Shown: one piece after another, positions 42,001 to 45,000 of the stretch | Layout of the letters: each line of letters begins with the position of its first letter | Numbering within the stretch: the first letter of the stretch is position 1 | From: Escherichia coli | GTDB taxonomy: Bacteria; Pseudomonadota; Gammaproteobacteria; Enterobacterales; Enterobacteriaceae | Assembly: GCF_965641715.1 (NCBI RefSeq) | Contig: NZ_OZ282453.1 | Reading direction: 5' to 3' (one strand) | DNA length: 64,000 bases | Program-made: the position numbers

Positions 42001-45000
42001 GATCATTAATCATGAGCTGACTTATACCGGTGATACCACGGTAGAGAATGGCGTTCTGATTGTCGGTGATGATTCAGTCACCCGTGCCGCTGGCGCGACG
42101 TTGTCAGGGTCCAAAAACATTCATGTTCTTAATGGCGGCACACTGAGTGGGCTGGGGACCGTTTCGGGTCAGGTTAATAACCAGGGAACACTGGCATCAC
42201 TGAATGCTCTCTCAGGTTATGAAACGGCAGAGGCGGGCAATTTTACCGTTGGCTCACTGACCAATACCGGCGTCATTCGTCTGGCCGGTGGTAAGACAGG
42301 AAATACCCTGACCGTAAATGGCGATTACACTGGTGGCGGTACGTTAATTATCAATACCGTGCTGGGGGATGATACTTCTGCCACTGACAAACTGATTGTC
42401 ACGGGTAACACCTCCGGTGATACCGGCGTGGTGGTGAATAATGTCCGGGGCCAGGGGGCTCAGACCGCTGACGGCATTGAGATTGTGCATGTCGGTGGGC
42501 AGTCTGACGGTAACTTCAGACTGCAGAACCGTGCGGTGGCAGGGGCATGGGAATATTTCCTGCATAAAGGTAATGCGGGTGGTACTGACGGTAACTGGTA
42601 TCTGCGTTCTGAATTGCCGCCAGAACCACAACCGCAGCCGCAGCCACAACCGCAGCCACAGCCACAGCCACACCCCACGCCGGATAAACCTGTACAGAAG
42701 GTCTATCGTCCGGAAGCGGGCTCTTATATTGCGAACATAGCGGCAGCCAACACGCTGTTCAACATCAGAATGCACGATCGTGAGGGGGAAACTTACTATA
42801 CCGATGTGTTTACTGGTGAGAAGAAAGCAACAAGTATGTGGATGCGTCATATCGGCGGTCATAATCGCTGGAAGGACAGCAGTTCACAGCTGAATACGCA
42901 AAGTAACCGTTATGTTGTGCAACTGGGTGGCAGCATTGCGCAATGGACTGACGGTCAGGACCGTCTGCAACTGGGGATTATGGCCGGTTATGGAAATGAG
43001 AAGAGTTCCACGACATCCTCGCTTTCGGGATATAAATCTAAAGGTGCGATCAATGGATACAGCACCGGTTTATACGGAACGTGGCAGCAGAATGACGGTA
43101 ATGACAACGGGGCTTATGTCGATACCTGGATCCAGTACGGATGGTTTAATAATACCGTTAATGGTGAAAAACTGGCTGCGGAGTCCTGGAAATCCCGTGG
43201 ATTTACCGGTTCAGTGGAAGCGGGTTATACCTTTAAAGCCGGCGAATTTACCGGTAGCCAGGGTAGTCACTATGACTGGTATATTCAGCCGCAGTCCCAG
43301 ATCACGTGGATGAATGTAAGAGCCAGTGAGCATACGGAGAAGAATGGCACGAAAGTTCAGCTCAGCGGAGACGGTAATATCCAGAGTCGTCTGGGCGTCA
43401 GAACTTACCTGAAAGGTAAGAGTGCGTCTGATGATATTAAGGCGCATCAGTTTGAGCCATTTGTGGAAGTTAACTGGATCCATAATACACGGAGCTGGGG
43501 TGTCAAAATGGATAATACGGCACTCAGTCAGGACGGAGCTACAAATATTGCTGAAGTCAAAACGGGTGTTCAGGGTAAATTGTCAGATAACCTGAATGTC
43601 TGGGGCAATGTTGGTGTTCAGGCTGGCGATAAAGGGTACAGTGATGCCCAGGCAATGCTGGGTATTAAATATATATTCTAATCACACAGTGGCAGGAGGG
43701 GACCTCCTGCCACCTCAGGGTTGTCATAATGAGTTCTGTAATGAAATTTTCTGTTGTTAATGCAGTAGTGCTGCTGTTGCTGATTGTACTTACTGGTGTT
43801 TTTTATATGAAAAAGTCAAAAGAAATTGCAGTTGTTAATATCGATGCTATTTATAATCAGTCTACCGCCGGAGACATGGCCAGAAAGCATCTGAATGAGG
43901 TTAAGAGTATTCTTGAAAAAGGATATGAGGATGCGCAAAAAGCATTCGCAGATAACGCGAATAAAGAGGCGCTGCTTCTTGATGCCAGACAAAAACTGGA
44001 ACGACAATATGTTATTGAGGAAAATAGCGCAAAAATGGTGTTATCCCGTGCGATAGATAATGCCATAGGCACATGGAGAAAAGACAATCCTAAAAATATT
44101 GCCGTATTGTCTTCAGGTGTTGTGCTTGCGCATAACGAGTCAGCTGATATCACCAAAGAAGTCATGACTTTGGTTGAAAAAGAAAATCTGGTTTTTAATA
44201 AATTACCCAAAGTGGAAGTGCACAATAAGAATGAAGAGAAACCAGAACAAAGTAAGTAATCACTAGATTCTGACGATTTCCAGAAGGGAGATTCAGCAGG
44301 CCAGCATCTGTAATCATTCAGATTTGCTGGCTTGCTGCTAAATATGGTTGCTAAGAAAAATAGCAGGCCAGTAATTTATTCAGATTACTGAATATAATAA
44401 TTTTTCAGGAACGGTTATGCTGAAGGTAGTATGTTTAATAGACACAATTATTTGCTGTGTCTAATATGAGGTGACATTTTTATGATCACTGACCAGCAAG
44501 ACTGACCCGTATTGATTAGCCTGATTATTGGCAACTTATTGGGGTAGTCATTTTGACATCGAATGGGGGAGGTTTCCAGTTAAGTTCACGAATGCATGAT
44601 GATTTGCGTTCACATATCGAAGTACTGGTTGGCTATACTAAGGATTTTAAGATAACTCACTGATTGTAAGTGGGTTATTGCGAGGGGGATGATAGATGGT
44701 GTCCCCTGCAGACATCTACTTGAAGCAGCAGGGGATTGATTGGAATGGTGTTTTTTAGATGTGAGAAATATTTTACCCGCTATTTTACCCATTGGCGCGG
44801 CTTAAGAGCTTATTTTTGAATTCACAATGGTCACGATATAACCATCTTGCTCGACCGTGGATAACTTTGGCTTTTGGCAGGTCGCCGGACTTAATCCGGT
44901 CGTAGATGAAGGTTTTACCAAAGCCAGTATCAGCCATGATGAATTTCAAATCAACCAGGGAATCAGGCTGTAGTTCGTGTTGCATGAGTGCTATCTCCGA

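What the first reader, a model, noticed from the sequence alone, without database searches (positions are those of the whole stretch)
44785..44985. Excisionase-like gene at the att end without an adjacent integrase (KplE1-like) on a full lambda-like early region
In lambda, int and xis sit together next to exo. Here the att-proximal gene is a TorI-like recombination directionality factor and no integrase lies between it and the junction, implying the integrase is at the opposite end as in KplE1/CPS-53. That integration module is combined with a complete lambda-type recombination and replication region, unlike the defective K-12 element.
Basis: partly seen in the sequence, partly recalled or inferred. 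Interest (0 to 1): 0.5.

Follow-up and report, generated by a model that had tools for sequence, protein, structure and literature searches.

The report
TorI excisionase at prophage attR end
The 66-codon gene is an exact copy of TorI, the well-studied excisionase of the KplE1/HK620/Sf6 family of argW-integrating phages, which always has its integrase at the opposite prophage end, so this is a correct but ordinary, already-described arrangement.

Summary
The arrangement is already known.

- **The gene.** The ORF at 44785-44985 (minus strand) encodes a protein 66/66 identical to E. coli TorI (PDB 1Z4H).
- **The junction.** 73 nt beyond its stop codon lies the published 16-nt KplE1 att core, CTGCAGGGGACACCAT, at 44696-44711. 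This is the 3' end of tRNA gene argW. Chromosomal DNA starts immediately to the left, and 186 E. coli genomes carry the reconstructed empty site.
- **No integrase here.** No integrase or lambda-type Xis homologue is found anywhere in the 64 kb.
- **The far end.** The prophage part of the window is 99.97% identical to a 42.8-kb prophage in E. coli TL20. That prophage ends with intS (99% identical to K-12 IntS) next to intact argW.
- **Why the genes are split.** In phage HK620 the order is TorI, attP, IntS, so integration separates the two genes.
- **The early region.** It is truly lambda/phage-21-like, with exo, bet, gam, N, cI, cro, cII, O, P and Q.
- **The swap point.** At a terminator hairpin (about 45028-45050), a lambda int-xis pair, still present in phage Chlobot, has been replaced by the torI-attP-intS cassette.
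- **Prior work.** Panis et al. (2010, 2012) describe this conserved module in functional lambdoid phages.
- **Side observation.** A conserved torI leader contains a 16-nt copy of the argW T-arm. Its function is unexplained.

The parts
44696..44711 (-). attR core, CTGCAGGGGACACCAT on the minus strand. It is identical to the last 15 nt of argW plus the base that follows the gene. It marks the prophage/chromosome boundary.
   Evidence: Single exact copy in the window. Same 16-mer at the argW 3' end and at the torI end in TL20 and K-12. Published as the KplE1 core (PMC2951348). The reconstructed empty site is contiguous in 186 genomes.
44712..44784 (-). Phage-side arm of attR between the core and the torI stop codon.
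   Evidence: Lies within the 338-nt block (44696-45033) that is 334/338 identical to K-12 KplE1 attR and 333/338 to HK620.
44770..44790 (-). Two direct GGGTAAAAT repeats (44770-44778 and 44782-44790) overlapping the torI stop codon. They are candidate IntS arm-type sites.
   Evidence: Motif scan. The same motif family, containing TAAA, occurs four times upstream of intS in attL. Panis 2010 states that TAAA is conserved in the IntS P' arm sites. HK620 annotates an attP repeat at the equivalent place. Binding was not tested here.
44785..44985 (-). torI: recombination directionality factor (excisionase) and TorR response-regulator inhibitor.
   Evidence: 66/66 identity to PDB 1Z4H. RefSeq annotation as torI. 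PHROG 66. Identical protein in 19 phage records.
44986..45033 (-). Conserved torI leader. It includes a 16-nt copy of the argW T-arm (TTGCAGGTTCGATTCC, 45005-45020) and the Shine-Dalgarno sequence GGAG.
   Evidence: Identical in K-12, and in HK620 apart from one base. GTTCGATT(C/T)CC is kept about 27 nt before the RDF start in 46 of 59 distinct divergent loci. Function unknown.
45027..45050 (-). Intrinsic-terminator-like hairpin (45037-45050) with its T run. It is the mosaic joint between the KplE1-type cassette and lambda-type DNA.
   Evidence: Terminator scan. Homology to K-12 and HK620 ends near 45033. Homology to lambda starts at 45028, lambda nt 29103. Phage Chlobot has a lambda-type xis-int pair on the other side of the same joint.
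45043..45210 (-). Lambda orf55-type small gene, the first gene of the lambda-like left arm.
   Evidence: PHROG 676, E = 3.6e-39. About 96% DNA identity to lambda from nt 29103.
48502..50263 (-). Lambda Red region: exo (48502-49179), bet (49176-49961), gam (49967-50263).
   Evidence: PHROGs 149, 252 and 259. RefSeq annotation in TL20. 96-97% identity to lambda.
52251..54139 (.). Immunity region: N-like (52251-52523, minus), LexA-family CI repressor (52836-53486, minus), Cro-like (53567-53752, plus), CII (53861-54139, plus).
   Evidence: PHROGs 271, 4, 409 and 191. Best DNA matches are lambda imm21 and phage 21.
54174..58084 (+). Replication and late-control genes: O (54174-55073), P (55070-55771), ren, ninB/E/F/G, and Q (57566-58084).
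   Evidence: PHROGs 277, 109 and 943. TL20 annotation.
43729..44695 (+). Chromosomal flank on the host side of attR: a 176-aa OmpH-family gene (43729-44259) and an intergenic stretch, downstream of upaE.
   Evidence: RefSeq annotations. This DNA is contiguous with argW in prophage-free genomes.

Best explanation
Window 44696 to beyond 64000 is the attR-proximal part of a roughly 42.8-kb lambdoid prophage integrated into the tRNA-Arg(CCU) gene argW by a KplE1/HK620/Sf6-type site-specific recombination module.

In the circular phage genome the order is torI, attP, intS, all in one orientation. IntS-mediated crossover within the 16-nt core therefore leaves torI at attR, as seen in the window. It leaves intS at attL beside the reconstituted argW, predicted about 41-43 kb to the right of 44696.

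TorI is the recombination directionality factor. Once made, it binds its GTTCG-type sites in attL. Together with IntS and IHF it drives excision, and it also represses the intS promoter that overlaps attL. IntS is made constitutively at a low, autoregulated level, so excision is switched by TorI expression alone.

In this prophage torI is the last gene of the leftward early operon. I infer that it is expressed from pL by N-antiterminated read-through after cleavage of the LexA-type CI repressor, as lambda xis is.

Shown here:
- identity of TorI;
- the core and the exact junction;
- absence of an integrase in the window;
- the far-end structure in a near-identical prophage;
- the cassette swap relative to a lambda int-xis phage.

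Taken from the literature: TorI's RDF activity, its binding sites, intS autoregulation and TorR inhibition.

Inferred: pL dependence of torI, and excision competence of this particular prophage.
For: - **TorI identity.** 66/66 identical to PDB 1Z4H. The 338-nt block from the core to the torI leader is 334/338 identical to K-12 KplE1 and 333/338 to HK620.
- **Junction.** The core at 44696-44711 equals the argW 3' end. The empty attB is found in 186 genomes.
- **No integrase.** No Int, IntS or Xis homologue is present in the window.
- **Far end.** The TL20 prophage is 99.974% identical over 19.3 kb. It has intS and argW at its far end, the same core there, the GTTCG-type repeats matching the published TorI sites and four TAAA arm repeats in attL, and IntS 382/385 identical to K-12 IntS.
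- **Phage order.** HK620, HK633, Chronis, Midgardsormr38, Emek, vB_EhrS_49 and phiEt88 all show RDF, then about 250 bp, then int, in one orientation. attP is annotated between the two genes in HK620.
- **Early region.** Lambda-type early genes are confirmed. Chlobot has the same left arm with a lambda-type int-xis pair.
- **Literature.** PMC2951348 and PMC3509656.
- **Recent mobility.** The chromosomal flank differs by 1.9% between the window and TL20, but the prophage by only 0.026%. This points to recent independent acquisition, that is, a recently mobile phage.
Against: - The intS/argW end of this particular genome lies outside the window and is inferred from another strain.
- Excision and pL-driven torI expression were not tested and cannot be tested here.
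- A terminator-like hairpin sits just upstream of torI, so expression requires antitermination or a separate promoter that has not been characterised.
- Pfam gives only sub-threshold hits for this short protein (HTH_17 E = 0.011, Phage_AlpA E = 0.16).
Confidence: 0.93

Rival explanations
1. torI here is an orphan relic. The far end of this genome's element has lost intS or attL, so the gene no longer serves excision and the prophage is locked in.
For: The far end is not in the window. Several accessory genes in the left arm are pseudogenes in the near-identical TL20 copy. An IS3 fragment lies near intS in TL20.
Against: In TL20 the same prophage has intact intS, attL and both cores. Prophage identity of 99.97% against 98.1% for the flanking chromosome indicates recent mobility. 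All early genes tested are intact.
Confidence: 0.04
2. The gene is kept mainly for its host-directed activity, inhibition of the TorR response regulator of the torCAD TMAO-respiration operon, rather than as an excisionase.
For: TorI was first found as a TorR inhibitor, and TorR and IntS compete for TorI (PMC3509656). The protein is 100% conserved in thousands of E. coli genomes, including the defective KplE1.
Against: The two activities are not exclusive, and RDF activity is experimentally established for this exact protein. Its position, orientation and flanking att sites are those of the recombination module in infectious phages.
Confidence: 0.02
3. A different recombinase close to this end does the job, for example the tyrosine recombinases at 32853-33422 and 34170-34799.
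For: Two tyrosine-type recombinase genes lie 10-12 kb to the left of attR.
Against: They are annotated as the DNA invertases IpuB and IpuA, next to the phase-variable adhesin gene upaE. They are only 189 and 209 aa. They lie on the chromosomal side of the core, in DNA that is present next to argW in prophage-free genomes. They show no similarity to IntS by tblastn.
Confidence: 0.01

Closest known systems
KplE1 (CPS-53) cryptic prophage of E. coli K-12: the intS ... torI recombination module at argW
   Same: Identical TorI protein. Same 16-nt core. The 338 nt from the core to the torI leader are 334/338 identical. torI lies next to attR and is transcribed toward the junction. intS lies next to argW at the other end, as seen in TL20, with IntS 99% identical.
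   Different: KplE1 is a 10.2-kb remnant with no repressor, replication or lysis genes (PMC2951348). The element here is about 42.8 kb with complete early, lysis and morphogenesis genes. In this strain an ipuAB-upaE island lies between dsdC and attR.
Phages HK620, Sf6, CUS-3, HK633, Kapi1, IME10 and phiv205-1: infectious lambdoid phages with the same module
   Same: TorI is 100% identical. The order is torI, attP, intS. All integrate at argW, and all have a lambdoid early-left operon ending at torI (PMC2951348, PMC3509656).
   Different: In the three inspected (HK620, HK633, phiv205-1), the early-left recombination genes are Erf- or Sak4-type rather than lambda Red, and the virions are podovirus or siphovirus types. 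Here the left arm is lambda Red (96-97% identical to lambda). The late genes are of the SEN34/vB_EcoM-606R2 myovirus type.
Phage lambda and phage Chlobot: lambda-type int-xis next to the Red region
   Same: The same left arm from orf55 through exo, bet, gam, kil and cIII. Identity is 98.4% to Chlobot over window 45031-49961 and about 96.5% to lambda.
   Different: In lambda and Chlobot, xis and int are adjacent and co-transcribed, with attP beyond int. Here that pair is replaced, at the terminator near 45028-45050, by torI and attR, with the integrase split off to the other prophage end.

Membership tests
KplE1/HK620/Sf6-type argW recombination module | RDF is TorI or a close homologue | tested here: met
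   66/66 identity to TorI, PDB 1Z4H.
KplE1/HK620/Sf6-type argW recombination module | The 16-nt core CTGCAGGGGACACCAT (the argW 3' end) lies at the prophage boundary | tested here: met
   Exact copy at 44696-44711, adjacent to DNA that abuts argW in empty sites. The core sequence is as published.
KplE1/HK620/Sf6-type argW recombination module | The RDF gene is the last gene at attR, transcribed toward the junction, with no adjacent integrase | tested here: met
   The torI stop codon is 73 nt from the core. No Int homologue is present in the window.
KplE1/HK620/Sf6-type argW recombination module | An IntS-type integrase lies next to attL and argW at the opposite end, with its promoter overlapping attL | not testable with these tools
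   This end lies outside the 64-kb window. The feature is met in TL20, whose prophage is 99.974% identical over the shared 19.3 kb: intS starts 161 nt after argW and IntS is 99% identical to K-12 IntS.
KplE1/HK620/Sf6-type argW recombination module | IntS arm-type sites (containing TAAA) in the att arms, and five TorI sites (GTTCG type) in attL | tested here: inconclusive
   Two GGGTAAAAT repeats occur in the attR arm of the window. In TL20, attL has four such repeats plus GTTCG-type repeats and is 237/239 identical to K-12 attL. These are sequence matches only; binding was not tested.
KplE1/HK620/Sf6-type argW recombination module | TorI-dependent excision by IntS plus IHF | not testable with these tools
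   Requires an experiment. It has been shown for the identical protein and near-identical att sites in K-12 and HK620 (PMC2951348, PMC3509656).
Lambda-type int-xis module | xis and int are adjacent and co-transcribed at the att-proximal end of the pL operon | tested here: not met
   tblastn with the Chlobot lambda-type Int and Xis finds nothing in the window. Lambda homology stops at 45028, just before where xis would be.
Lambdoid early region (Red recombination; O/P replication; N/Q antitermination; CI/Cro/CII) | Presence of exo, bet, gam, N, cI, cro, cII, O, P and Q in lambda order | tested here: met
   PHROG matches with E-values from 1e-26 to 1e-151. 95-97% DNA identity to lambda and imm21. 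RefSeq annotation.
Winged-helix Xis/AlpA-type excisionases (Pfam HTH_17 / Phage_AlpA) | Significant profile match | tested here: inconclusive
   Pfam hits are sub-threshold (E = 0.011 and 0.16). PHROG 66, 'excisionase', is significant (E = 2.7e-8). The solved structure 1Z4H is of the identical protein.

The most novel reading that the evidence does not exclude
The conserved torI leader (44986-45033) may be a regulatory or recombination site that controls RDF expression, which would address the still uncharacterised switch for excision in this family.

The leader carries a 16-nt exact copy of the argW T-arm. In attB this is the tRNA segment that directly abuts the att core. The GTTCGATT(C/T)CC core of the copy is kept about 27 nt upstream of the RDF start codon in 46 of 59 distinct divergent modules.

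Three functions are possible. It could be a TorI operator, because it contains the GTTCG pentamer of TorI sites. It could be an IntS core-type site mimicking the attB half-site. It could be a Shine-Dalgarno-masking RNA element.
Probability: 0.2. Interest if true: 0.35.

Novelty: already known. Interest (0 to 1): 0.1.

Why it matters
As given, the finding matters little. It correctly identifies a textbook case. The split torI/intS module at argW, and its presence on complete lambdoid phages, were described by the Ansaldi group and in the HK620 and Sf6 genome papers. It occurs in more than half of complete E. coli genomes.

The analysis does add three small things:
- a precise boundary for this prophage (the core at 44696-44711);
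- a clean example of an integration-cassette swap at a terminator, lambda int-xis versus torI-attP-intS on an otherwise 98% identical left arm;
- evidence that this particular lambda/SEN34-type hybrid phage moved recently between divergent E. coli lineages.

The only potentially new lead is the conserved tRNA-T-arm-like leader upstream of the RDF gene. It lies where the literature says the excision switch (torI expression) is still uncharacterised.

Tried and rejected
- **Pfam and NCBIfam on the 66-aa protein.** Pfam gave only sub-threshold hits and NCBIfam none. They were uninformative for so short a protein and were superseded by exact identity to PDB 1Z4H.
- **tblastn for an integrase.** Searches with IntS and with lambda-type Int and Xis found nothing in the window. 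This rules out an integrase hidden at this end.
- **IpuA and IpuB as the missing recombinase.** Rejected: they are small invertases on the chromosomal side of the core.
- **The 60-aa ORF 44610-44792.** It runs across the att core, so its product is a phage/host chimera. The equivalent ORFs in HK620 and Sf6 (hkaB, gene 17) span attP. I treated it as non-coding.
- **Viral-contig scan with an RDF alignment.** It returned only 100%-identical TorI loci, so divergent RDFs had to be queried separately.
- **RNA folding of five leader variants.** Energies were no better than shuffles, z = -1.2 to +1.0. A stable RNA structure is therefore not supported, although pairing between UUCC and the Shine-Dalgarno sequence appears in three of the five minimum-energy folds.
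- **The T-arm copy as a pure TorI operator.** This is weakened by phiEt88, which keeps the motif although its attL-side repeats are of a different type (GATGTAACC).
- **Literature search for 'hkaC'.** It returned only unrelated papers. I could not check Clark et al. 2001 or Panis et al. 2007, which are not in the library.
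Full report
**1. The observation**

The ORF is present at 44785-44985 on the minus strand: ATG at 44985, TAA at 44785-44787, 66 codons. Its product is identical at all 66 residues to the 'Tor inhibition protein' TorI, PDB 1Z4H (E = 6.6e-43). RefSeq annotates the same DNA in E. coli TL20 as torI, WP_001163428.1. It also matches PHROG 66, 'excisionase and transcriptional regulator' (E = 2.7e-8). Pfam gives only sub-threshold HTH_17 and Phage_AlpA hits, which is unremarkable for so short a protein. So the gene is TorI itself, not merely TorI-like.

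**2. The junction**

The argW gene of TL20 ends ...TTGCAGGTTCGATTCCTGCAGGGGACACCA. The 16-nt sequence CTGCAGGGGACACCAT is published as the duplicated core of KplE1 (PMC2951348). It occurs exactly once in the window, at 44696-44711 on the minus strand, 73 nt beyond the torI stop codon.

I joined the yfdC-argW-core sequence of TL20 to the reverse complement of window 44396-44695. This reconstructed empty site is found as one contiguous 617-nt match (99.5% identity) in 186 complete E. coli genomes. Everything left of 44696 is therefore chromosome: an OmpH-like gene, upaE, ipuA, ipuB, dsdC, dsdXA, emrKY and evgAS. Everything from 44712 rightward is prophage.

**3. No integrase at this end**

Only 73 nt separate torI from the core. 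tblastn with IntS, with a lambda-type Int and with a lambda-type Xis (the last two from phage Chlobot) finds nothing in the 64 kb. The best E-values are 0.62, 1.2 and 0.053, which is chance level.

Two tyrosine recombinase genes lie at 32853-33422 and 34170-34799. They are the small invertases IpuB and IpuA, next to the phase-variable adhesin gene upaE. They sit on the chromosomal side of the junction.

**4. The far end**

The window stops inside the prophage. Window 23582-64000 is colinear with E. coli TL20, NZ_CP191567.1. Across the prophage part, 44696-64000, identity is 99.974%: 5 mismatches in 19,305 nt with no gaps. The chromosomal part, 23582-44695, is only 98.1% identical, with mismatches spread evenly at about 20 per kb.

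In TL20 the prophage runs 42.8 kb. It ends with intS (385 aa, 382/385 identical to K-12 IntS), which starts 161 nt after an intact argW carrying the same core. The TL20 attL region is 237/239 identical to K-12 attL. It keeps the GTTCG-type repeats that match the published TorI sites, and the TAAA arm repeats (site definitions in PMC2951348).

K-12 itself shows the same topology: argW, intS..., torI, pawZ (the 15-nt argW pseudogene), dsdC.

The contrast between near-identical prophages and 2% divergent flanks implies that the same phage entered two different E. coli lineages recently. This indirectly supports a functional integration module.

**5. Why the two genes are split**

In phage HK620 the annotated order is hkaC (TorI), attP core, int (IntS), all on one strand. 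The same RDF, then about 250 bp, then integrase arrangement is seen in:
- HK633;
- Klebsiella phage Chronis;
- Erwinia phages Midgardsormr38, vB_EhrS_49 and phiEt88;
- Salmonella phage Emek.

Crossover at attP therefore places the RDF and the integrase at opposite prophage ends.

[quoted passage not shown] In it, the intS promoter overlaps attL. IntS is negatively regulated by itself and by TorI. int and RDF transcription are uncoupled. Excision is switched by RDF expression (PMC2951348).

They also state that the module is highly conserved in CUS-3, HK620, Sf6 and prophages of APEC-O1 and UTI89. TorI is 100% identical to HkaC of HK620 and P18 of Sf6.

**6. The lambda-like early region and the cassette swap**

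PHROG scans of the window's own ORFs confirm the following genes:

| Gene | Coordinates |
|---|---|
| exo | 48502-49179 |
| bet | 49176-49961 |
| gam | 49967-50263 |
| N-like | 52251-52523 |
| LexA-family CI repressor | 52836-53486 |
| Cro-like | 53567-53752 |
| CII | 53861-54139 |
| O | 54174-55073 |
| P | 55070-55771 |
| Q | 57566-58084 |

DNA identity to lambda, lambda imm21 and phage 21 is 95-97%.

Homology to K-12 KplE1 and HK620 covers 44696 to about 45033 (334/338 and 333/338 identical). Homology to lambda begins at 45028, which is lambda nt 29103, about 25 nt from the xis start. The joint falls in the T run of a terminator-like hairpin at 45037-45050.

Phage Chlobot and 81 E. coli genomes have the same left arm (window 45031-49961, 98.4% identical). 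Chlobot carries a lambda-type xis-int pair at the joint; the integration modules of the 81 genomes were not inspected, though their matches stop at the same point. Conversely, the contiguous torI-to-orf55 joint is present in 595 of 5426 complete E. coli genomes. In one inspected example, GN02050, it sits on a P22-like left arm.

Only TL20 among the 5426 complete genomes shares this exact combination. This is ordinary lambdoid mosaicism.

The late genes in TL20 are of the SEN34/vB_EcoM-606R2 myovirus type, not lambda-like.

**7. Mechanism**

*Shown here:*
- identity of the RDF;
- the core and the exact junction;
- absence of an integrase in the window;
- intS and argW at the far end of a near-identical prophage;
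- the module order in free phages.

*From the literature:* TorI binds five GTTCG-type sites in attL. With IntS and IHF it promotes excision, and it represses PintS. It also binds TorR (PMC2951348, PMC3509656).

*Inferred:* in this prophage torI is the distal gene of the pL operon. It would be expressed by N-antiterminated read-through after SOS cleavage of the CI repressor.

**8. Comparison and novelty**

The element meets every defining feature of the KplE1/HK620/Sf6 argW module that can be tested in the window. It fails the defining feature of a lambda-type int-xis module.

The arrangement, and its occurrence on complete lambdoid phages, is already known. Identical TorI occurs in 19 phage records. 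Matches to the torI region occur in more than half of the complete E. coli genomes.

**9. Side observation: a conserved torI leader**

The 48-nt torI leader contains TTGCAGGTTCGATTCC at 45005-45020. This is a 16/16 copy of the argW T-arm segment that directly abuts the core in attB. The phage order is therefore: T-arm copy, 19 nt, torI, P arm, core.

The motif GTTCGATT(C/T)CC is retained in 46 of 59 distinct upstream sequences from divergent modules. In 40 of these it lies 27 nt before the RDF start. The set includes:
- Salmonella Emek-type RDFs, about 50% identical to TorI;
- Erwinia phage Midgardsormr38, with two tandem copies;
- phiEt88, whose RDF is 36-39% identical and whose attL-side repeats are of a different type.

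Column conservation is mostly 80-100% from GTTCG through the Shine-Dalgarno sequence to the ATG (90% or more across the motif itself). It is mostly 20-60% in the sequence further upstream.

RNA folds of the leader are no more stable than shuffled sequences.

PMC2951348 calls the torI promoter 'non-characterized' and names RDF expression as the open question. I could not determine whether this motif has been noted before, and I cannot assign it a function.

Noticed in passing
window 45005-45020 (within the torI leader, 44986-45033, minus strand); also L004 5966-5981, L010 2458-2484, L013 1771-1781, L011 2465-2475: There is a 16/16 copy of the argW T-arm (TTGCAGGTTCGATTCC), the tRNA segment that abuts the att core in attB. 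It sits 19 nt upstream of the torI start codon. Its core, GTTCGATT(C/T)CC, is conserved about 27 nt before the RDF start in 46 of 59 distinct divergent RDF-attP-int modules. The motif contains the GTTCG pentamer of TorI sites. Its function is unknown.
   Followed up: partly
window 23582-44695 compared with 44696-64000, against TL20 (L001): The chromosomal flank is 98.1% identical to TL20, with about 20 mismatches per kb spread evenly. The prophage is 99.974% identical, and the switch occurs at the att core. The same phage therefore appears to have lysogenised two divergent E. coli lineages recently.
   Followed up: partly
window 45027-45050: A terminator-like hairpin with its T run forms the exact mosaic joint. 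To the left is the KplE1-type cassette. To the right is a lambda-type left arm that, in phage Chlobot, is joined at the same point to a lambda-type xis-int pair; 81 other E. coli genomes share the arm and the same break point.
   Followed up: yes
window 32853-43681: The tyrosine invertase genes ipuB (32853-33422, minus) and ipuA (34170-34799, plus), an HTH regulator gene, and the 2639-aa phase-variable autotransporter gene upaE (35762-43681) lie between dsdC and attR. K-12 lacks this island, so there torI abuts dsdC.
   Followed up: partly
window 45294-46997: An accessory cluster lies between orf55 and the ea22-like gene remnant. It comprises a DUF2513 protein (45294-45722), a small regulator-like ORF (45853-46089) overlapping a truncated UmuD/HumD-like ORF (45912-46229; annotated as pseudogenes in TL20), and a 204-aa protein of unknown function (PHROG 8310, 46383-46997). 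The cluster is shared with phage Chlobot.
   Followed up: partly
window 58147-58302: Two phage-borne tRNA genes, tRNA-Asn(GTT) and tRNA-Thr(TGT), lie just downstream of Q. The RefSeq annotation of TL20 lists only the tRNA-Asn.
   Followed up: no
window about 60900-64000 and L002 21935-45001: The late region is not lambda-like. The terminase, the DUF1073 protein (annotated as portal in related phages), the DUF2184 and DUF3383 proteins (the latter region annotated as tail sheath in related phages) and the baseplate J protein match induced myoviruses vB_EcoM-606R2 and 611R5 (about 96% identity) and Salmonella phage SEN34 (about 82%). The prophage is thus a lambda-early / myovirus-late hybrid.
   Followed up: partly
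window 44610-44792 (minus strand): A 60-aa ORF starts inside the 3' end of torI and runs across the att core into chromosomal DNA. It is the integration-split counterpart of the attP-spanning ORFs hkaB (HK620) and gene 17 (Sf6), and is probably not a gene.
   Followed up: no
window 44694-44695, compared with L001: The two chromosomal bases adjoining the core differ between the window (…CTATCA) and TL20 (…TTATCA). In TL20 this extends the attL/attR identity from 16 to 22 nt.
   Followed up: no
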